From contig JBBIGR010000001.1 of NCBI GenBank assembly GCA_037447435.1, positions 160,001-224,000 of the forward strand: a DNA stretch of 64,000 nucleotides. The letters run 5' to 3'. Position 1 is the first letter of the stretch. Every line of letters starts with the position of its first letter. Source of the stretch: Fibrobacteria bacterium. Lineage in GTDB: Bacteria > Fibrobacterota > Chitinivibrionia > Chitinivibrionales > FEN-1185. Shown here one piece after another: positions 54,609-62,950 of this stretch. Position numbers and translations under genes: made by a program. Under the pieces are notes generated by a model. It was not told the origin of the DNA. It was given only the letters and a program-made list of their open reading frames with translations, and did no database searches.

Positions 54609-55655
54609 ATGAAAAAAGCCCTTGTTTGCGGTGCCGGCGGATTCATAGGAAGTCATCTTGTAAAACGTTTGAAATCGGAAGGGTTTTGGGTTCGCGGCGT
54701 CGATATAAAAATGCCGGAATTCGAAACATCGGCAGCCGATCAATTCATCCGGGCCGACCTTCGTGATGCGGGTTTCTGTGCGGAGGTATGCGACACTGAT
54801 TTCGCCGAAGTGTATCAATTGGCCGCGGACATGGGCGGCGCCGGTTATATATTTACAAAAGAGCATGATGCGGACGTGATGCATAATTCGGTCACGATCA
54901 ATTGCAACATCCTCAAGGCCGCCGTTAGCGCAAATGTCAAAAAGTTGTTTTTTTCCTCTTCCGCTTGCATTTATCCCGAACGGAACCAGCTTGACCCTCT
55001 AAACCCCGATTGTTCGGAGGCTTCGGCATATCCCGCGGAACCAGACAGCGAATACGGATGGGAAAAATTATTCTCGGAACGCTTATACCTGTCGTTTCAG
55101 CGCAATTACGGAATTCCGGTGCGTATCGCGAGATTCCACAATGTTTTCGGGCCCCAGGGTTCCTGGAACAATGGAAAGGAAAAAGCGCCTGCAGCTTTAT
55201 GCAGGAAAATCGCACTCGCCCCGGATAACGGCGAAATAGAAATTTGGGGTGACGGGAAACAAACCAGATCCTTCCTTTACATAGACGAATGTTTGGACGG
55301 GGTCCGCAAATTTATGGACAGCACCTTTTCCGGCCCGCTTAATATAGGATCGGAAGAAATGGTTTCCATTGACAATTTGGCATATGCAATTATGAATATC
55401 GCCAAAAAGGACCTTGGCATCCGTCATATTCCGGGTCCGTTGGGCGTTGCCGGACGAAGATCGGACAATAAACTTATTCGTGAAAAACTCGATTGGGCCC
55501 CTTCGCTACCGCTTTCGTATGGTCTTTGCAAAACGTATTCTTGGATTTACGAACAAGTCGGCAACGGTGTAAAAGAAGCGCTAGTTTTCGCTAACGACAG
55601 CAAAACATTTGATTCACTTGAAGCCATTTCGGGGACATTCGCTTCAATAAGGTAA
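54609..55655 (+). CDS. NAD-dependent epimerase, GDP-mannose 3,5-epimerase-like
   Basis: GAGGFIG, LAADMGG, SSACIYP, YGWEK, RFHN, EKAPAA.CRK, WGDGKQTRSF. Confidence 0.88.
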   Translation: MKKALVCGAGGFIGSHLVKRLKSEGFWVRGVDIKMPEFETSAADQFIRADLRDAGFCAEVCDTDFAEVYQLAADMGGAGYIFTKEHDADVMHNSVTINCNILKAAVSANVKKLFFSSSACIYPERNQLDPLNPDCSEASAYPAEPDSEYGWEKLFSERLYLSFQRNYGIPVRIARFHNVFGPQGSWNNGKEKAPAALCRKIALAPDNGEIEIWGDGKQTRSFLYIDECLDGVRKFMDSTFSGPLNIGSEEMVSIDNLAYAIMNIAKKDLGIRHIPGPLGVAGRRSDNKLIREKLDWAPSLPLSYGLCKTYSWIYEQVGNGVKEALVFANDSKTFDSLEAISGTFASIR

Positions 55656-55765: not shown

Positions 55766-56152
55766 ATGTTGCATATTGAAAGTGAGTTTTCTGAAATTAA
55801 AATTGTTCCCTCCGGTTTGAATCCCATGCTCGGGCATATCCGGGGAAAAGTAACCGATATAGACGGCAAGGGTTTGAAGCACAGCAGAATATGGATAAGG
55901 GAAACCGGACGAAGTACCTATACGGACAATTACGGCAATTTCGTCCTCATCAATGTTGTTCCGGCAATTTATACTCTTATTGCCGAAAACGAAGGATATA
56001 CGCAGGCGGTTTTAACCGATATTTCCGTTGAAAGCGGGGATAATCCGGGTAACCGTTTTATCATGCATCCTAAATACAGCAAACCGAAAAGCGACCCCTA
56101 CCGAGCATACGCGTTGCGGTTTGCGCAGGTTGTACCCTTTGCGACATTATAA
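55766..56152 (+). CDS. Carboxypeptidase regulatory-like domain protein
   Basis: G.IRGKVTD.DG..L, TD..GNF.L.NV.PA.YTL.A...GY; AGGAGG RBS. Confidence 0.75.
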   Translation: MLHIESEFSEIKIVPSGLNPMLGHIRGKVTDIDGKGLKHSRIWIRETGRSTYTDNYGNFVLINVVPAIYTLIAENEGYTQAVLTDISVESGDNPGNRFIMHPKYSKPKSDPYRAYALRFAQVVPFATL

Positions 56153-56770
56153 AAAAGCCTTACTGACAACTACGATAGCCGCAACGATCAGGGCAGTGCC
56201 GGCGATTCTGTTTACTATTACTATTAGAGCGGGTTTAAAATAAACTTTGACCCTGCTGAATATGAAGCATTTTGTCGTATCGAATGTTAACGCGCAGGAA
56301 AAAAGGCCGATAAAAAAAATAAAAAACGGTTGTGTGCGCATACAGAAATTGACTCCGGCTATTCCCACAACGGTCATCCAAAAAACATAAACAAAAGGAT
56401 TGGATGAATTTATAAGAAAGCCCGAGATAAACCCTCTGAACAATTTCGGTTGTTGTTCCATAGTCCCTATTCCGTTCATCGGTACGGTTACCGCCGGTTT
56501 TCGTATCCATTGGGTCAAACCAAAGACAAACAGGATAACCGCACAAACGACAGAGGCCCATCGTTGGTTATTGACTTTTGTAAGAAATTGGGTGCAACCC
56601 AAGACCGTTATTGAAATGATGGCGGTATCGCTTACCCATAATCCTAAAAGTACGGCCATTCCCGCGACAAATCCGCTCCGTACGCATGCCTGAAAGTATA
56701 GCAGTAGCCCCGGTCCGACACTGAGAGTCATGGTAAGTGCGACCAATGAACCGGCAAAAAACGGGTTCAT
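56147..56770 (-). CDS. LysE family translocator
   Basis: VGPG; GF.AG; G....D; GFLIN.SNP..FW; ATGA-coupled to the upstream gene. Confidence 0.8.
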   Translation of the reverse strand: MNPFFAGSLVALTMTLSVGPGLLLYFQACVRSGFVAGMAVLLGLWVSDTAIISITVLGCTQFLTKVNNQRWASVVCAVILFVFGLTQWIRKPAVTVPMNGIGTMEQQPKLFRGFISGFLINSSNPFVYVFWMTVVGIAGVNFCMRTQPFFIFFIGLFSCALTFDTTKCFIFSRVKVYFKPALIVIVNRIAGTALIVAAIVVVSKAFL

Positions 56771-57891
56771 GGGTTCCGTGTTAGCATAATAAGGTCGCAA
56801 ACTTCCCGAACCGCACCATTGCCGCCTTGGGCTTTTGTAATGTAATGGGCGATATTTTTAACCGCAATATTCCCGTCCGGCACGGTCACGGCAACTCCGA
56901 CTTTTTGCATAACGTCAAGATCGTTGATGTCATCGCCGACGTACACCACGTCTTGAAACGAAAGCCCTTCTTTTTCAAGGAATTTTCCGAGCACTTCCAT
57001 TTTATTCCCCGATTTTGCATGAACATGGTCTATCGATAATTTGTATGCGCGTTGATAAACAATATCACTGTTTTCCGATGAAATGAACGCTGTTTTGAGC
57101 CCTGCTTTTTGGACGATCGAAATGCCCATTCCGTCACGAGTGTTAAATTTTTTTAGTTCATCACCGTTTGCGGAATAATACATTCCGCCGTCGGTAAGCA
57201 CGCCGTCGACATCCATGACCATAATTTTTACCTTTGCAAGTTTATTCAAAATGTCGCTTTTCTGGCGGCCTTCCATAAGACGTTGTCGCAAAAGCGCTTC
57301 CGTCATTGTAAACGTTGTCGCATCGTCTATCTCGACATTCAGTTCCGGCTCATTGACTTTTCTGCAAATAGTGTCGCCATACCATTTTCCGGCCTTGATT
57401 ACGTTTTTATTTAAGATATAAACATTGCCGTCATCGTAAAAAAATCCCGGAATGTCTTGCCTGCGCAGATTCCGATGCGTGGCATATTCGATTATCTTGG
57501 TGTAATATCCGGTCGCAAGGGTGTCGTAGTTGCCTTGTAAAAATTCTTTGATGCAATTGTCTATGGTATCATGGTTTCGCAGCGGCGAAGTCGGTTGCAA
57601 GACCACCACTGCATTGCACTCCACTTGTGCGGCAATATGCTGCAAAACGGCAAGAGTTGTCGTATCGTCCTGCGCTAAATCGCATGGCCGTATCATGACG
57701 CGCGCTCCGAAATTCCTGGCACAATCGGCAATGACGGGGTCTTCGGTAGACACCACAAAATCATCGAGAAGTTTCGATTGCTTTGCGGCCTGTATGGTCC
57801 AATAAATCAGCGGAAAACCGGCTATCGGTAAAATATTTTTTCCCGGCAGTCCCTTGCTCCCGCCGCGGGCCAAAATGACGCCAAATATCAT
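56767..57891 (-). CDS. neuA: CMP-nonulosonate synthetase fused to KdsC-like HAD phosphatase
   Basis: ARGGSKGLPGKN, LQPTSPLR, EIDD; C-terminal DVDGVLTDG, F.TRDG.G, GDDIND, GG.GAVRE. Confidence 0.88.
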   Translation of the reverse strand: MIFGVILARGGSKGLPGKNILPIAGFPLIYWTIQAAKQSKLLDDFVVSTEDPVIADCARNFGARVMIRPCDLAQDDTTTLAVLQHIAAQVECNAVVVLQPTSPLRNHDTIDNCIKEFLQGNYDTLATGYYTKIIEYATHRNLRRQDIPGFFYDDGNVYILNKNVIKAGKWYGDTICRKVNEPELNVEIDDATTFTMTEALLRQRLMEGRQKSDILNKLAKVKIMVMDVDGVLTDGGMYYSANGDELKKFNTRDGMGISIVQKAGLKTAFISSENSDIVYQRAYKLSIDHVHAKSGNKMEVLGKFLEKEGLSFQDVVYVGDDINDLDVMQKVGVAVTVPDGNIAVKNIAHYITKAQGGNGAVREVCDLIMLTRNP

Positions 57892-57892
57892 A

Positions 57893-58966
57893 TCACATCC
57901 CCACTATCTTCAAGTAAAGATCCTTTATTTTATCTCTGGTGAGTATTGATTGCCAATTTTTGCCAAGCGCATTTTGCAAGGGTTTCTCCATGATAAGCGT
58001 TATGTCGATCATTTTTTCCAATGTTTTATCGTCAACAATTCCTACAGGATTCCGAGGCAACGTTATTTTATTATTGATCAGCATTTCCCTATAATCGGGA
58101 ATATATTCCGGATAATATTCCTCCAGATGATTAAACACAAGACAATTTGCCAATCCGTGATGGACTCCGAATGCCCAACTCAGCCCATAAGACAATGCGT
58201 GACAAATACCGACTTCGGAATACACAATGGCGTTTCCTCCCATGTACGATGCCATCATGAGATCGGCATCATTACCCTGGAATAAAAAAATGTTGTTACA
58301 AAGTTCCAATGCCTTGGACGCAAATGCTTTTGAAAATTCGTTGAGAAATGTTCCTGCCAGGGATTCGACGCAATGGATGTAACAGTCCATGCCCGTGAAA
58401 AAGCGTTGCTCTCTGGGAACAGTTGCGAGCAGATCGGGGTCGAGTATTACATAGTCGAACAGCGAATAATCGCTGTTGATACCCTGCTTCTTGACCGGCC
58501 CCGTAAGCACTGTTGTCCGCGACACTTCGGATCCGGTGCCGGATACGGTTGGTATTCCTATTTTGTAAATTGGCGGAACCGTGACGAGGTCCCAACCTTG
58601 GTACCTATGTGTTTTTCCCGGATTGGTAAGCATTATAGACAGCGCCTTTGCCGTGTCTAATGTCGAGCCGCCGCCTATTCCGATAATTGCCGAGGGAAGC
58701 GTGTGTTTTTGTTGTAAAACCGTTTCAACATGGATATCGATGGTTTCCGTTTTCGGTTCATTTGTCGTATCTTCAAAAAAGCATATGTCCGTACTTAGGA
58801 TCCGAATTTTATTCAGCAGCGGATTATTTTTGAAAAAATGATCAATGACAAAAACGACATATTTATCATTTAACCTTTTCTCTTCCAAAATATCCGCCAA
58901 GGCAGCTATTGCGCCGGATGAAAAAATCACCTGTGGAACGGGACGAAATATTTTATATTGCACCAT
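57893..58966 (-). CDS. Iron-containing alcohol dehydrogenase, KdnB (Kdo 8-oxidase)-like
   Basis: GGGSTLD.AK, MLTNPG...YQGWDL, PTVSGTGSE.SRT, NSDY, TGMDCYIHCVESL.GTFLNEFSKA, CHALSYGL, HG. Confidence 0.85.
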   Translation of the reverse strand: MVQYKIFRPVPQVIFSSGAIAALADILEEKRLNDKYVVFVIDHFFKNNPLLNKIRILSTDICFFEDTTNEPKTETIDIHVETVLQQKHTLPSAIIGIGGGSTLDTAKALSIMLTNPGKTHRYQGWDLVTVPPIYKIGIPTVSGTGSEVSRTTVLTGPVKKQGINSDYSLFDYVILDPDLLATVPREQRFFTGMDCYIHCVESLAGTFLNEFSKAFASKALELCNNIFLFQGNDADLMMASYMGGNAIVYSEVGICHALSYGLSWAFGVHHGLANCLVFNHLEEYYPEYIPDYREMLINNKITLPRNPVGIVDDKTLEKMIDITLIMEKPLQNALGKNWQSILTRDKIKDLYLKIVGM

Positions 58967-58969
58967 ACG

Positions 58970-60172
58970 TCAATTTTCCTGCAACTTGTTTAATGCCTCA
59001 TCCGCCGACGATATGAGATAATCGATGTCGTCGTCGGATAAATCCGTGCCAAAAGGAAAGGAAATCATGGAATCGAAGAACGCATTCGATTCCGGGCATG
59101 TTCCCGTATCGAAATAGCCGTTTTTTTGAAACAACTCGTACCGATAGAGCGGACAGTATTGTACCGCACATTTTATTCCATATTCATTGTAAAGCATGTC
59201 GATGAGATCGTCCCTTGTCTTTCCTGAATTACTCGTGCAAAACCGAGCCGGAAGCAAATGCATGGCTGAAACCGAATTCTGAGACTGCGCTTGGAATCGG
59301 AGTTCGCCATGACTACTAAGCCCTGAAACGATTTTTTCAAACGAAGCCCTTCTTTTTTCATTTATCTTATCGAGCCTTTCCAATAAAATCGTGCCCGCTT
59401 TTGCCTGAATTTCGCCAAGAGCAAAATTATACGGTATCAGTCCCGGAGCAGCTTCCACGATATTGCTCATTGCCGGCTGCCAATATTTTTGTTGATTGAC
59501 AAAAGGCCTTTGGCCTATTTTACGGAGTCCAAGAATCGTCTCGGCGTAATTGTCATTATTGGTAACGATCATTCCGCCTTCGCCGAGAGTGGTTATATTT
59601 TTTTGACCATGAAAACTGAAACAGCCGAAATCGCCGAACGTACCGACCTTTTTTCCCTGCCAATTTGCACCGGGAGCCTGGGCGCAGTCTTCGATAATTA
59701 TCAGACCGTGTTCCAAGGACATTTTCATCAGCTCATCCATTTGCACCGGTAAACCGTACAAGTGGACAACAACAATGGCCTTGGTTCTTGGTGTGATTTT
59801 TTTCCTTATATCGGAAATATCCATGACAAAGGTTTTAGGATCTATGTCTGCAAAAACGATTTTTGCCTTAAGCCGTAAAAACGGAAGCGCACTTGCGGTA
59901 AACGTATGCGCGGGTACAATGACTTCGTCGCCCTGTACAACACCGCTCAGCATTGTCGCAATTTCCAGCGCGCTGGAAGCATTGCTGACGCCGAAAGCGT
60001 GTTTAACCGACAAATATTTAGAAAAATCATTTTCAAATTCCTGCAGATAAGGCCCCATCGACAGTGTCTGCGCCTCCTGCAACGCGACATTCAATCGAGA
60101 AATTTCATCACTGGTCAATTTGGTTTGGATTCTTGGAAAATCGAGTTTTATTTTTACGCTCACGTCAATCAC
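58970..60172 (-). CDS. DegT/DnrJ/EryC1/StrS PLP aminotransferase
   Basis: GDEVIVPAHTF.AS, VVHLYG, EDCAQ, FSFHGQKN(PLP Lys)ITTLGEGG. Confidence 0.92.
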   Translation of the reverse strand: MIDVSVKIKLDFPRIQTKLTSDEISRLNVALQEAQTLSMGPYLQEFENDFSKYLSVKHAFGVSNASSALEIATMLSGVVQGDEVIVPAHTFTASALPFLRLKAKIVFADIDPKTFVMDISDIRKKITPRTKAIVVVHLYGLPVQMDELMKMSLEHGLIIIEDCAQAPGANWQGKKVGTFGDFGCFSFHGQKNITTLGEGGMIVTNNDNYAETILGLRKIGQRPFVNQQKYWQPAMSNIVEAAPGLIPYNFALGEIQAKAGTILLERLDKINEKRRASFEKIVSGLSSHGELRFQAQSQNSVSAMHLLPARFCTSNSGKTRDDLIDMLYNEYGIKCAVQYCPLYRYELFQKNGYFDTGTCPESNAFFDSMISFPFGTDLSDDDIDYLISSADEALNKLQEN

Positions 60173-61274
60173 ACCCTTTCAATTGTTTCGAAGATGCATA
60201 CCAGGAAATTTCCTCAGCCGTATATTGCGACTTTCTTTCGAAAGCGAAATGTTGCGAATACTTTCTCAATGGCGATTCAACGTTGTTATGCTTATTGTGG
60301 TACAATCGATAGTGCGTTGATTTTTTTTCCAGATGGTTCTTAATTGTTTGTGCAATACGCTCTGCAGAAGTTCCGTTGTTTTGTATCGGTGCCAACTTTC
60401 TAATTTCTTCGATCGGGACATCGGCATGAATTTCTTTTCCTAACGATTCTCCGATGAAAACAACTGAAGAAAACCGGGTAACAAGAACTTCGCAATTTGC
60501 AATCATGTGATTGGTGTTTCCTCTTTCAAACACGAGCGACTTTGGCGCATATCGCATGATTTCCCGCACTGCACGTTTTACGTTTTCACTTGGGTGTAAT
60601 TTGAACACTATTTGACGTCCCTGAGCAATGCGGACGGTTTTCAGGATAAATTTTTTTCGGTTTTCATACTCCATGCATTCCCGTAAATTTGATGTTGCTG
60701 CCAGCACAAAATTTTTATAGGGAAAATCGTTATTCAAAAACTGCTTATTATTGTCGAAATTCGGCACCCCGGTAACGACAATTTTTTCAGGAGGAATGCC
60801 TTTTTTGACAAAAACTTCTTTAAATCCCGCCGACGCAACAAAGAAAAGTTCATAAGCATTAGATAACCCGGTAGCCGACGTACCGGCAATAAAACGCGGA
60901 AAACCGAAATTCTTCACTAAGAAATATCCCAAACGCTGCGGGTCGGTCATACCTTCCTGCACCAGAAAAACCGGTTTATTTCTAATATTTTTTTGTATAA
61001 TGAGATCTTGACATGTTACGACAAAATCATAATCGTTGGCGGCGCCCTTGTAATCGATTGCAGCCTCTTTTGATTTAAGATAATGCAGGGTCTGTTCCTT
61101 GTATTTCCCGCCGAGGATGGAAAAATCGAAAAATCGCTTTGCCACATCATCCCTAAAATCCCCGATATAGTATGGGGTAAAGACACAATCGTATTCCGGA
61201 AAATGCATTGCGATTTGATGCATCATGGTCGTTTGGTTGACAGACCCGCAAATAAACAGGATTTTTTTCTTCAT
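60165..61274 (-). CDS. Conserved hypothetical GT-B-like protein, putative nonulosonate transferase
   Basis: Start MKKKILFICGS; QEG, KLHP and FSS motifs; lies between neuB and the aminotransferase. Confidence 0.6.
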   Translation of the reverse strand: MKKKILFICGSVNQTTMMHQIAMHFPEYDCVFTPYYIGDFRDDVAKRFFDFSILGGKYKEQTLHYLKSKEAAIDYKGAANDYDFVVTCQDLIIQKNIRNKPVFLVQEGMTDPQRLGYFLVKNFGFPRFIAGTSATGLSNAYELFFVASAGFKEVFVKKGIPPEKIVVTGVPNFDNNKQFLNNDFPYKNFVLAATSNLRECMEYENRKKFILKTVRIAQGRQIVFKLHPSENVKRAVREIMRYAPKSLVFERGNTNHMIANCEVLVTRFSSVVFIGESLGKEIHADVPIEEIRKLAPIQNNGTSAERIAQTIKNHLEKKSTHYRLYHNKHNNVESPLRKYSQHFAFERKSQYTAEEISWYASSKQLKGCD

Positions 61275-62188
61275 TATACTGCCATTTCCAGCGTTTGATT
61301 TTGCAAAACGCGCCGCATTTTCTTTTGTGCCGCAATTTCGCTGGCATACAATCTTTTTGTCCCATCGCCCATTGCTTTTTCGACGCATCGTATATTACGA
61401 ACCAGAATTTCGAGTCCGTGCAGTTCTACGGAAGCCGCTTGATCGGTTCCCCACATCGCCCGTTCGAGGGTTATATGGCGTTCGACGAAATGTGCGCCCA
61501 AAGCCACTGCTGCAACCGTTGTGGGCAATCCGATTTCATGGCCCGAATATCCGATAATTGCTTTAGGAAAATTCTTTTCAAGGGTAGTTATCATCCGAAG
61601 GTTTAATTCCTCATCTATGCACGGGTATGCCGAAGTGGTATGGGCAAGAAAAAGATTTTCTTCCCCGATAAGTCCGACAGCTTCTTTTATTTCCTGCATT
61701 GTCGACATGCCGGTGGAAATCATTACTGGCGCCCCCGCATGCTTGATACTTGACAATAAACTTTTATCGGTAAGCATTGCCGAGGAAATTTTATACAGAG
61801 GCACATCGAATTGTTTTATGAATTCCACCGAAGGAATGTCCCAGCATGAAGCAAACCATTGGATGTTCATTTCTTTGCAATACCGGTCCAATTCCACATA
61901 CTCATTGAAACCGAATTCAATCTTTTTGCGATATTCAAGATAAGAAATATATCCCCACGGCGTTTCACGCATGACACCTTGTTGTTCGGGAGGAACACAT
62001 AATTCCGGAGTCCGCTTTTGGAACTTGACTGCATTGCATCCTGCCCGAACCGCGCCGTCTATCATTTTTTTTGCTAGTTCTATCGAACCATTGTGATTTA
62101 TCCCTATTTCGGCAATGATAAAAACCGGTGCGCCCTCACCGACTACGGCGTGTCCGACAACGCATTGCTTTCCATTTTGTAATTCCAT
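61274..62188 (-). CDS. neuB: N-acetylneuraminate synthase family (short, no SAF domain)
   Basis: AEIGINHNG, VKFQKR, ISTGMS, GYSGHE, ERHITL; only 304 aa. Confidence 0.9.
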   Translation of the reverse strand: MELQNGKQCVVGHAVVGEGAPVFIIAEIGINHNGSIELAKKMIDGAVRAGCNAVKFQKRTPELCVPPEQQGVMRETPWGYISYLEYRKKIEFGFNEYVELDRYCKEMNIQWFASCWDIPSVEFIKQFDVPLYKISSAMLTDKSLLSSIKHAGAPVMISTGMSTMQEIKEAVGLIGEENLFLAHTTSAYPCIDEELNLRMITTLEKNFPKAIIGYSGHEIGLPTTVAAVALGAHFVERHITLERAMWGTDQAASVELHGLEILVRNIRCVEKAMGDGTKRLYASEIAAQKKMRRVLQNQTLEMAV

Positions 62189-62290: not shown

Positions 62291-62950
62291 CTAATTTTTT
62301 GCAAATTCTATTGTGGCGTAATACGCTTCGGCACTTGACTCGGTATTATCGGAATCCGTCATGATGCTTACCGCTTCGATGTGAGAAAACCCTTTGCCGA
62401 AGCATTGTTCAATATCGTCCCGTACATTTACTTTTTGAAACACCCATTTTCCAAGATTCTCTTTTCCAGATTGAAGCACGATCACTTTGTCGTATGCGTT
62501 TTTTGAATCCATAACCTCGCTTCCGACTCTAAGCGAGGTACTCCACACATATTTGACGGCATGAATGGAAAACCCTTTTTTTACGCCGACGATGATTCCC
62601 GCAGCCGAATCATTTCTTCGTTTTTCGTCCTCCCGGGCGCTATCCGGAAGCGTCACGGCTTTCCATGCCCATTTCAACACCGGGTATTCGCTCAAAGTAA
62701 TCGAAATCTTTTTTGCCAAACAAAGATTATGTGCCGAGTTAAAAACATGCAATACGAATTGTCCTTGAGTTTTAGAAACATCGAACATCTGTTTATTTCC
62801 CAGAATTATTTCCCATTTGCCTTGTTGCACCGTCTTGTCATTTACCGCAATGGAAAACGAATCTATTAAGGAGATTTCCGGAAATACCTGCCTATGATAA
62901 ATAAGGACAACGGCACCGATAAATATTCCCCTAATTAATTTATTTGTCAC
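62291..62950 (-). CDS. DUF3047 domain protein
   Basis: YP.L.W.WK...LP, DSAA, KYVWS, W....NV..D, IMTDSDNT...A.AYY. Confidence 0.8.
   Translation of the reverse strand: MTNKLIRGIFIGAVVLIYHRQVFPEISLIDSFSIAVNDKTVQQGKWEIILGNKQMFDVSKTQGQFVLHVFNSAHNLCLAKKISITLSEYPVLKWAWKAVTLPDSAREDEKRRNDSAAGIIVGVKKGFSIHAVKYVWSTSLRVGSEVMDSKNAYDKVIVLQSGKENLGKWVFQKVNVRDDIEQCFGKGFSHIEAVSIMTDSDNTESSAEAYYATIEFAKN

What the first reader, a model, noticed from the sequence alone, without database searches (positions are those of the whole stretch)
56767..62188. Candidate pathway for a C9-aminated Kdn-type nonulosonic acid
Seen: a tightly coupled operon of short neuB, unknown GT-B protein, DegT aminotransferase, Fe-ADH closely matching KdnB, neuA fused to a KdsC-like phosphatase, then lysE. 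No hydrolysing UDP-GlcNAc 2-epimerase (NeuC) or Leg/Pse genes are present. Established: NeuB plus a HAD phosphatase plus a CMP-synthetase makes CMP-Kdn via Kdn-9-P from Man-6-P, and Shewanella KdnB/KdnA oxidise then aminate the terminal C8 alcohol of Kdo to give Kdo8N. Inference: the same oxidase/transaminase chemistry has been grafted onto a nine-carbon pathway, giving 9-amino-9-deoxy-Kdn or similar. I do not recall a described biosynthesis for such a sugar.
Basis: partly seen in the sequence, partly recalled or inferred. Interest (0 to 1): 0.82.

Follow-up and report, generated by a model that had tools for sequence, protein, structure and literature searches.

The report
Amino-Kdn operon, candidate sphingolipid headgroup
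A tightly packed six-gene operon is predicted to build the sialic-acid-like sugar Kdn and then swap one hydroxyl, most likely the terminal one, for an amino group; related gene sets in green sulfur bacteria suggest the sugar may end up on a membrane sphingolipid for which I found no described biosynthesis.

Summary
The operon is real: neuB, GT-B gene, degT, Fe-ADH, neuA-HAD, lysE, with gaps of -8 to +3 bp. The nine-carbon reading gains support. The HAD domain has the Glu/Lys pair of Kdn-9-P phosphatase, not the Arg of KdsC. The genome has one neuB, no NeuC hit, and separate Kdo genes. Two corrections: the DegT is not a KdnA orthologue, and the Fe-ADH lies beside, not inside, the Kdo8N KdnB clade, so 'grafted from Kdo8N' is unsupported. 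The synteny recurs in a Bdellovibrionales MAG and partly in a KSB1 MAG. New here: the GT-B gene occurs in 117 of 351 Bacteroidota genomes. In 17 of 20 loci examined it sits with a cytidylyltransferase and an aminotransferase, mostly with an oxidoreductase. Counting the window, three non-orthologous pairs serve the same NeuB/HAD/GT-B core; green sulfur bacteria use a KdnA-sister enzyme. Best reading: Man-6-P to Kdn to 9-amino-9-deoxy-Kdn to its CMP form, likely transferred to ceramide. The Chlorobium aminoglycosphingolipid is a candidate product. The amine position (C9, C5 or C8), the GT-B role (its fold is closest to NeuC) and the acceptor are untested.

The parts
61274..62188 (-). Short NeuB-family synthase (304 aa, no SAF domain); predicted Kdn-9-phosphate synthase
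   Evidence: PF03102; below the NeuB_NnaB and PseI cut-offs; 60-62% identical to the short NeuBs of green sulfur and Ignavibacteria-type genomes, which lie next to a HAD gene; the only neuB in G000
60165..61274 (-). Uncharacterised GT-B protein (369 aa); predicted CMP-ulosonate transferase, acceptor possibly ceramide; a NeuC-like hydrolase is not excluded
   Evidence: Model pLDDT 86; fold matches NeuC 5ZLR Z 17.9 (rmsd 3.6, 276 aligned), other epimerases 16.6-17.2, PglA 15.5, TagF 15.4, polysialyltransferase 13.9; invariant QEG 106-108 and KLH 225-227 with near-invariant P228; 117 of 351 Bacteroidota genomes
58970..60172 (-). DegT-family PLP aminotransferase of a clade ('DegT-II', my label) distinct from KdnA; predicted oxo-ulosonate transaminase
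   Evidence: PF01041; 34% to the KdnA-type gene of a Shewanella locus; own clade 100/100; a relative fused to a partial KdnB-like domain (P0100) and one fused to a HAD (P0048)
57893..58966 (-). KdnB-like type III alcohol dehydrogenase; predicted Kdn oxidase
   Evidence: 372 bits to 5K8C; 48% to the KdnB of Shewanella locus L080; pairs with L006 (97/86) outside the canonical KdnB clade (100/98)
56767..57891 (-). NeuA-type cytidylyltransferase fused to a HAD phosphatase with the Kdn-9-P phosphatase Glu/Lys pair (E273, K284)
   Evidence: PF02348 plus TIGR01670; aligned to 3E81 and its Ala mutants 4HGQ/4HGR, while KdsC chains carry Arg at the Glu site
56147..56770 (-). LysE-type membrane protein, translationally coupled (ATGA overlap); role unknown
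   Evidence: PF01810; overlap from the sequence; not found beside the cassette in the other loci

Best explanation
The operon likely makes a CMP-activated amino-nonulosonic acid: NeuB is predicted to condense mannose-6-phosphate with PEP to Kdn-9-phosphate, the fused HAD would remove the phosphate, the KdnB-like enzyme would oxidise the terminal C9 alcohol, the DegT would aminate it to 9-amino-9-deoxy-Kdn, NeuA would activate it with CTP, and the GT-B protein would likely transfer it to a membrane acceptor, possibly ceramide. Shown: the genes, their coupling, families, motifs, trees and co-occurrence. Inferred: every substrate, the order of steps, the amine position and the acceptor. Odds: amino-nonulosonate of some kind about 0.75; C9 given that about 0.6; lipid acceptor about 0.5.
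For: (1) Nine carbons and phosphorylated: NeuB-family synthase plus a HAD with E273/K284 matching E56/K67 of the B. thetaiotaomicron Kdn-9-P phosphatase 3E81; KdsC chains have Arg there. The Man-6-P to Kdn-9-P to Kdn to CMP-Kdn route is described in PMC6200933 (passages). No NeuC hit in G000. Kdo has its own kdsA, kdsB and waaA elsewhere. (2) Partition by partner: of the 80 best KdnB loci, 0 of 49 with KdnA hold a neuB, and 25 of 80 hold kdsB; of 21 DegT-II loci, 15 hold a KdnB-like gene, 10 a neuB, 6 both, 0 kdsB. (3) Synteny: neuB-degT-kdnB-neuA/HAD in a Bdellovibrionales MAG at 48-55% (L006); consecutive accessions MCI0512181-83 (DegT, GT-B, NeuB) in a KSB1 MAG. (4) Convergence: of 20 GT-B loci, 18 hold a cytidylyltransferase and 17 an aminotransferase; 12 are class III (11 of them with an SDR) and 5 are KdnA-like with a different Fe-ADH. 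The KdnA-like enzymes are sister to KdnA at 100/100 (276 bits to 5K8B against 159 for the next hit). So both KdnB-like and KdnA-like enzymes serve this core in different genomes. (5) Lipid link: four of these genomes tested carry FMO, so are green sulfur bacteria; all 5 such loci have an LPG_synthase_TM gene; G000 has a serine palmitoyltransferase-like gene (478 bits to 3A2B/8GUH) beside a GNAT protein; an aminoglycosphingolipid of Chlorobium limicola is cited in PMC11762602 (passage).
Against: No enzyme was assayed. The DegT is not KdnA-related, and DegT enzymes usually aminate ring ketones (recalled). The Chlorobium lipid head group was, as I recall, reported as neuraminic acid, which has its amine at C5; that paper is not held. 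A natural 8-amino nonulosonic acid exists (PMC3210612 section 13). The best GT-B fold match is NeuC, 75 of 83 family members hit Epimerase_2 weakly, and its motif is QEG rather than (D/E)(D/E)G. The SPT link is weak: 19 of 20 GT-B genomes against 13 of 20 without GT-B, and the G000 SPT scores 607, under the 640 cut-off. The GT-B profile found 0 of 15 other genomes, 11 of which carry DegT-II (no positive control), so the amination pair does not need this transferase. By whole-domain score the window HAD is closer to KdsC (165 bits) than to KDN-9-PPhBT (139), and it is the only KdsC-type HAD in the genome. The full five-gene set was not recovered intact from a second genome. Trees used the top BLAST hits and a distant root.
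Confidence: 0.45

Rival explanations
1. Same pathway, other carbon: the amine goes to C5 (true neuraminic acid made without ManNAc), to C8 or C7, or onto the hexose phosphate before the NeuB step.
For: The Chlorobium lipid head group is recalled as neuraminic acid (paper not held), and 4 of 5 green-sulfur-type genomes lack a NeuC over the cut-off, so such a sugar would need a non-ManNAc route. An 8-amino nonulosonate is known from Flexibacter maritimus (PMC3210612). The window DegT is unrelated to KdnA. Some DegT-II loci pair a long NeuB with a PseG-like domain below cut-off (L096, L177, L195).
Against: The oxidase is the nearest sampled relative of the enzyme that oxidises the terminal C8 of Kdo, and the green sulfur transaminase is sister to KdnA. 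Type III ADHs mostly act on primary alcohols, and free 5-amino neuraminic acid cyclises (both recalled). Amino-Kdn isomers have the same mass, so a mass-based assignment would not fix the position (arithmetic).
Confidence: 0.28
2. Two separate products: the KdnB-like/DegT pair makes Kdo8N for LPS, and NeuB/NeuA-HAD/GT-B make plain CMP-Kdn.
For: G000 has kdsA, kdsB and waaA. The Fe-ADH is 48-55% identical to canonical KdnB and groups with them at 97/95 against other DegT-II-linked enzymes. The HAD is the genome's only KdsC-type enzyme.
Against: No KdnA orthologue in the genome (best 34%). The pair is embedded between neuB and neuA with gaps of 3 bp or less. 0 of 21 DegT-II loci hold kdsB and 10 hold neuB. 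17 of 20 GT-B loci carry their own aminotransferase.
Confidence: 0.12
3. The GT-B protein is a remote NeuC/PseG-like nucleotide-sugar hydrolase that feeds NeuB, so the backbone is not Kdn (for example an N-acyl or amino mannose derivative), and the transferase is encoded elsewhere.
For: Top fold match NeuC, Z 17.9, with three more epimerases at 16.6-17.2 before any transferase. Weak Epimerase_2 hits in 75 of 83 members.
Against: No member reaches TIGR03568 at E 0.01. The profile comparison with a two-sequence NeuC/WecB alignment gives 17% probability. The Arg shared by both epimerases at the N-terminus is absent from the invariant GS-N-T stretch by my eye alignment. The only PDB sequence hit is a TagF-like polymerase, and 61 of 83 members hit Glyphos_transf. 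A phosphatase without a sugar kinase among the six genes fits a hexose-6-phosphate from central metabolism.
Confidence: 0.1

Closest known systems
Kdo8N pathway of Shewanella oneidensis (KdnB 5K8C, KdnA 5K8B; Gattis et al. 2013, seen only as summarised in PMC4402001 and tabulated in PMC5125639)
   Same: KdnB-like type III ADH next to a DegT-family aminotransferase and a CMP-transferase; predicted oxidise-then-aminate logic on a free ulosonic acid.
   Different: The aminotransferase is not a KdnA orthologue; the Fe-ADH is outside the canonical clade; the partners are NeuB and NeuA-HAD, not KdsB; there is a GT-B gene in the operon.
CMP-Kdn pathway of Bacteroides thetaiotaomicron (BT1714 synthase, phosphatase 3E81) and Prymnesium parvum (PMC6200933)
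   Same: NeuB-family synthase, HAD with the same Glu/Lys pair, NeuA-type cytidylyltransferase, no NeuC.
   Different: Added oxidase and aminotransferase; NeuB lacks the SAF domain; NeuA and HAD are fused; the synthase could not be compared with BT1714 or the algal enzyme here.
Aminoglycosphingolipid of Chlorobium limicola f. thiosulfatophilum (Jensen et al. 1991; citation seen in PMC11762602, structure recalled)
   Same: Green sulfur bacteria carry orthologues of the window's GT-B (46-51%) and short NeuB (60-61%) with a HAD, NeuA, an Fe-ADH, a KdnA-like DegT and SPT.
   Different: No gene has been tied to that lipid in the papers I could search; the green sulfur oxidase and transaminase are not orthologues of the window's; they have an LPG_synthase_TM gene where the window has lysE; the genomes examined are unnamed.
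Bacterial sialyltransferases GT38/GT52/GT80 (D/E-D/E-G and HP motifs, PMC2169525 abstract and section 10)
   Same: GT-B fold; invariant QEG and KLHP stretches about 120 residues apart.
   Different: First motif residue is Gln; no significant sequence match; the fold is closer to NeuC and TagF than to the polysialyltransferase 5WC6 (Z 13.9).

Membership tests
Kdo8N pathway (KdnA/KdnB/KdsB) | Oxidase inside the KdnA/kdsB-linked KdnB clade | tested here: not met
   Canonical clade of 18 rows at 100/98 excludes the window, which pairs with L006; same pattern in the 99-row quick tree
Kdo8N pathway (KdnA/KdnB/KdsB) | KdnA-orthologous aminotransferase | tested here: not met
   130 bits to 5K8B, rank 20; separate clade 100/100; a common origin of KdnA, green sulfur and DegT-II enzymes is not rejected, p-AU 0.056
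Kdo8N pathway (KdnA/KdnB/KdsB) | KdsB-type CMP-Kdo synthetase in the cluster | tested here: not met
   The N-domain scores better to PseF/NeuA than to KdsB models; the true kdsB is on contig C15
Kdo8N pathway (KdnA/KdnB/KdsB) | Converts Kdo to Kdo8N | not testable with these tools
   Needs an assay
CMP-Kdn pathway (B. thetaiotaomicron type) | NeuB-family synthase, HAD phosphatase and NeuA-type cytidylyltransferase together | tested here: met
CMP-Kdn pathway (B. thetaiotaomicron type) | Glu56/Lys67 of Kdn-9-P phosphatase (their role in specificity is recalled; PDB holds Ala mutants at these sites) | tested here: met
   E273 and K284 in the window; Glu and Lys also in 5 of 5 related HADs aligned; KdsC chains have Arg at the Glu site
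CMP-Kdn pathway (B. thetaiotaomicron type) | Synthase specific for Man-6-P | not testable with these tools
   No characterised Kdn-9-P synthase sequence was available from the tools
Neu5Ac, Leg or Pse pathways | Hydrolysing epimerase NeuC/LegG or PseG, and for Leg/Pse a dehydratase and acetyltransferase in the cluster | tested here: not met
   None among the six genes; no NeuC tblastn hit in G000; caveat: GT-B fold
Neu5Ac, Leg or Pse pathways | NeuB with SAF domain, over the NeuB_NnaB or PseI cut-off | tested here: not met
   249 of 400 and 195 of 340 bits; no SAF hit; ends before the SAF region
NeuC-type UDP-GlcNAc 2-epimerase (GT-B gene) | Family score and catalytic residues | tested here: inconclusive
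   Fold closest to NeuC, but 0 of 83 members hit TIGR03568 and hhalign probability is 17%
Bacterial sialyltransferases (GT-B gene) | D/E-D/E-G and HP motifs | tested here: inconclusive
   QEG invariant and HP near-invariant in 83 sequences; motif definition from PMC2169525; an HP also occurs in the WecB of this genome
Glycosphingolipid synthesis | Host encodes serine palmitoyltransferase and a ceramide acyltransferase | tested here: inconclusive
   SPT-like gene 478 bits to solved SPT but 607 of 640 on NF047600; neighbouring GNAT protein has relatives beside SPT in 11 of 12 loci; its identity as bCerS is my inference
Glycosphingolipid synthesis | Amino-ulosonyl ceramide present in the membrane | not testable with these tools
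   Needs lipidomics

The most novel reading that the evidence does not exclude
The GT-B family is an undescribed CMP-amino-nonulosonate:ceramide transferase. A third of sampled Bacteroidota genomes (green sulfur bacteria and Ignavibacteria-type lineages) make ganglioside-like amino-Kdn sphingolipids with it. The amination step was recruited three times from unrelated enzymes, and the 'neuraminic acid' of the 1991 Chlorobium lipid is its 9-amino isomer. This window would be a hybrid that joins that lipid module to a KdnB-like/DegT-II pair.
Probability: 0.25. Interest if true: 0.85.

Novelty: new variant of a known kind. Interest (0 to 1): 0.66.

Why it matters
If right, it adds a terminal-amino branch to the nonulosonic acids, which are usually aminated at C5/C7 through nucleotide-sugar precursors. 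A C9 amine would make the sugar zwitterionic and give it the mass of neuraminic acid, so mass-only surveys could mis-assign it. It also names candidate genes for a green sulfur bacterial glycosphingolipid reported in 1991, testable by knockout and lipidomics in cultured, harmless phototrophs. Enzymes that put an amine at C9 of Kdn would be useful for making tagged sialic acid analogues. The KdnB-like/neuB idea itself has come up several times in this scan; the link to the GT-B family, the phosphatase signature and the lipid candidate is what this window adds.

Tried and rejected
KdnA orthology of the DegT: rejected. Direction 'Kdo8N to nine-carbon': not supported; the reverse is the best tree but not significant. 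The AU test left the green sulfur enzymes out of the held group, so its p-value is not a fair test; I redid it (p 0.056). The trees are quick trees with long outgroups; I rely, which dropped two outgroup rows. Leptospira: two DegT-II proteins come from Leptospira, and its NulO cluster holds an unassigned aminotransferase (PMC3438082 parts 1-3 of 5; PMC4758666 passages), but I could not show they are the same gene. Plasmids: one DegT-II hit in a sugar-catabolism-like cluster without neuB (L091), no KdnB hit. Metagenome scan: only 2 loci. Promoter and terminator scans gave no more sites than shuffles. The ESM Atlas returned only hypothetical clusters. SPT co-occurrence was weakened by its control. 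No Leg/Pse dehydratase over cut-off among 39 proteins scanned from 8 loci, so I could not show that the pair acts on 9-deoxy sugars. Literature: searches found no description of this pathway; '9-amino-9-deoxy' had no occurrence in the 20 of 201 papers listed; one search found 0 papers. The library lacks most subscription papers, including Gattis 2013 and Jensen 1991. No supplements were read; those of PMC6200933 hold Kdn-9-P synthase sequences that bear on the NeuB assignment.
Full report
Observation. The six genes are present on the minus strand with gaps of -1, -8, +3, +1 and -4 bp. Family scans give NeuB without a SAF domain, an unassigned GT-B-like protein, DegT, Fe-ADH, a cytidylyltransferase fused to a KdsC-type HAD, and LysE. 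The genome is 99.6% complete. It has one neuB, one HAD of this type, a WecB-type epimerase, no tblastn hit to a NeuC query, and separate kdsA, kdsB and waaA. The cassette is patchy among kin: a KdnB-like gene in 3 of 296 genomes of the phylum, own included, and 0 of 5 of the genus; the GT-B gene in 1 of 81 of the order. Operon GC is 43.7% against 45.6% for the genome, so composition says little about transfer.

The oxidase and the transaminase. The Fe-ADH scores 372 bits to KdnB 5K8C, and the next unrelated ADH scores 96. The DegT scores only 130 bits to KdnA 5K8B, below generic sugar aminotransferases. In the careful tree, 18 canonical KdnBs form a clade (100/98) that excludes the window enzyme, which pairs with a Bdellovibrionales protein (97/86). 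Other neuB-linked enzymes branch deeper, but their monophyly with the window is not rejected (p-AU 0.09). The DegT falls in its own clade, 'DegT-II' (100/100). So the pair likely works like KdnB/KdnA but is not that pair, and the direction of grafting is open. What I know of the Kdo8N pathway comes from passages in PMC4402001 and PMC5125639 and from PDB titles; the primary paper is not held.

Partners. Among the 80 best of 590 KdnB-related stretches from a partial scan, 49 hold a KdnA orthologue and none of those holds neuB; 25 hold kdsB; one (L006) holds DegT-II and neuB in the order neuB-degT-kdnB-neuA/HAD. Some of these loci are under 5 kb, so absences there are weak. DegT-II was found in 3 of 401, 11 of 401 and 0 of 351 genomes of three other phyla. 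Of 21 DegT-II loci (L098 and short duplicates dropped), 15 hold a KdnB-like gene, 10 a neuB, 6 both and none kdsB. Eight of the 21 look like close kin; 5 of 5 tested have a neuB elsewhere. A KSB1 MAG has DegT, GT-B and NeuB under consecutive accessions. By eye, 10 of the 27 best DegT hits share a contig length with a GT-B or NeuB hit, which is indirect. P0100 fuses DegT-II to a partial KdnB-like domain; it is a single sequence and may be an assembly product.

Nine carbons. The solved B. thetaiotaomicron Kdn-9-P phosphatase 3E81 has Glu56 and Lys67, and entries 4HGQ and 4HGR carry Ala at these sites, while the KdsC chains shown have Arg at the first. The window HAD has E273 and K284 there, as do 5 of 5 related HADs. 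That these residues set specificity is recalled. Against this, the whole domain scores higher to KdsC models, and it may also serve Kdo-8-P, since no other such HAD exists in the genome. The Man-6-P route to CMP-Kdn is described in PMC6200933 (passages). I could not compare the NeuB with a characterised Kdn-9-P synthase.

The GT-B gene leads further. It occurs in 117 of 351 sampled Bacteroidota genomes, a sample with no DegT-II. I took 20 of the 117 loci, chosen across the score range and not at random. Eighteen hold a cytidylyltransferase and 17 an aminotransferase. Five have LPG_synthase_TM, GT-B, NeuA, an Fe-ADH only about 29% like the window's, and a DegT that is sister to KdnA. Four of those five genomes were tested for FMO and all four have it, so they are green sulfur bacteria. 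Each of the four has a short NeuB 60-61% identical to the window's next to a HAD gene, and 4 of 5 lack a NeuC over cut-off. With the window, one NeuB/HAD/GT-B core thus goes with three non-orthologous oxidoreductase-aminotransferase pairs. This is the best argument that the product is an amino-ulosonate. It also favours the terminal carbon, since a KdnB relative serves here and a KdnA relative there.

What the GT-B protein does. The model is confident (pLDDT 86). Its closest fold is NeuC (Z 17.9), then other epimerases, PglA and TagF (Foldseek similar). Sequence evidence is split: weak Epimerase_2 hits in 75 of 83 members, weak Glyphos_transf hits in 61, no TIGR03568 hit, a TagF-like polymerase as the only PDB sequence hit, and invariant QEG and near-invariant HP stretches that resemble the sialyltransferase motifs of PMC2169525. 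I favour a CMP-sugar transferase because the operon otherwise lacks one and because a phosphatase without a kinase points to a hexose-6-phosphate substrate. The NeuC-like reading stays at about 0.1.

Acceptor. G000 has an SPT-like gene (478 bits to solved SPT, just under the NCBIfam cut-off) beside a GNAT protein, an SDR, a CDP-alcohol transferase and another LysE gene. SPT-like genes are in 3 of 20 relatives, 19 of 20 GT-B genomes and 13 of 20 Bacteroidota genomes without GT-B, so the association is modest. Chlorobium limicola has an aminoglycosphingolipid (citation seen in PMC11762602). I recall its head group as neuraminic acid; the paper is not held. An amino-deoxy-Kdn has the same formula, so that lipid is a candidate product under either C5 or C9 amination. 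The GT-B profile found nothing in 15 genomes, 11 of them DegT-II carriers, so the amination pair also serves other glycans.

Verdict. The most likely product is CMP-9-amino-9-deoxy-Kdn (0.45), then another amine position (0.28), a Kdo8N plus Kdn split (0.12) and a NeuC-like GT-B (0.10). Ten paper searches found no description of this pathway, within a library that lacks most subscription papers. Earlier AI notes of this scan raised the KdnB-like/neuB idea and an amino-ulosonate lipid transferase; they are leads, not support. I rate it a new variant of a known kind, interest 0.66, because it offers named, testable genes for an undescribed sugar and possibly for a lipid reported in 1991.

Noticed in passing
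L268 (G000:C79:2981-8127): LysE-type gene, CDP-alcohol phosphatidyltransferase, SPT-like gene, GNAT protein and SDR in one run: a likely sphingolipid cluster, patchy in the family. Its LysE is 27% like the operon's lysE.
   Followed up: partly
L235, L238-L241, L243-L245, L253, L254: Ignavibacteria-type GT-B loci add a split transketolase to the class III aminotransferase and SDR; L236 and L237 lack it. It may change the carbon skeleton of the sugar.
   Followed up: partly
L041, L058, L062, L071, L072, L074, L077-L079, L082, L083: Bacteroidota loci have canonical kdnB with kdsB nearby but no kdnA within the locus, which suggests Kdo8N or a related sugar beyond Shewanella; many Desulfobacterota loci have kdnA-kdnB.
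   Followed up: no
L096, L097, L098, L095 (viral contigs): Viral contigs carry KdnB-like plus DegT-II genes, with neuB in L096, and neuB-neuA-DegT-II in L095.
   Followed up: no
L089, L177: A radical SAM/SPASM gene sits inside two DegT-II/neuB cassettes; in L089 no Fe-ADH is seen on the 3.5 kb contig, so it might replace the oxidase.
   Followed up: no
L178 (G001:C4): A KdnB-like gene with no DegT, neuB or kdsB within about 10 kb; it pairs with the fusion P0100 in the tree.
   Followed up: no
   Followed up: partly
window 54609-55655 (+): NAD-dependent epimerase facing the operon from the other strand, no family over cut-off; it looks like a GDP-mannose 3,5-epimerase by recall. Not counted as part of the operon.
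   Followed up: no
window 62291-62950 (-): DUF3047 gene about 100 bp upstream of neuB on the same strand, with a paralogue on C13; no link shown.
   Followed up: no
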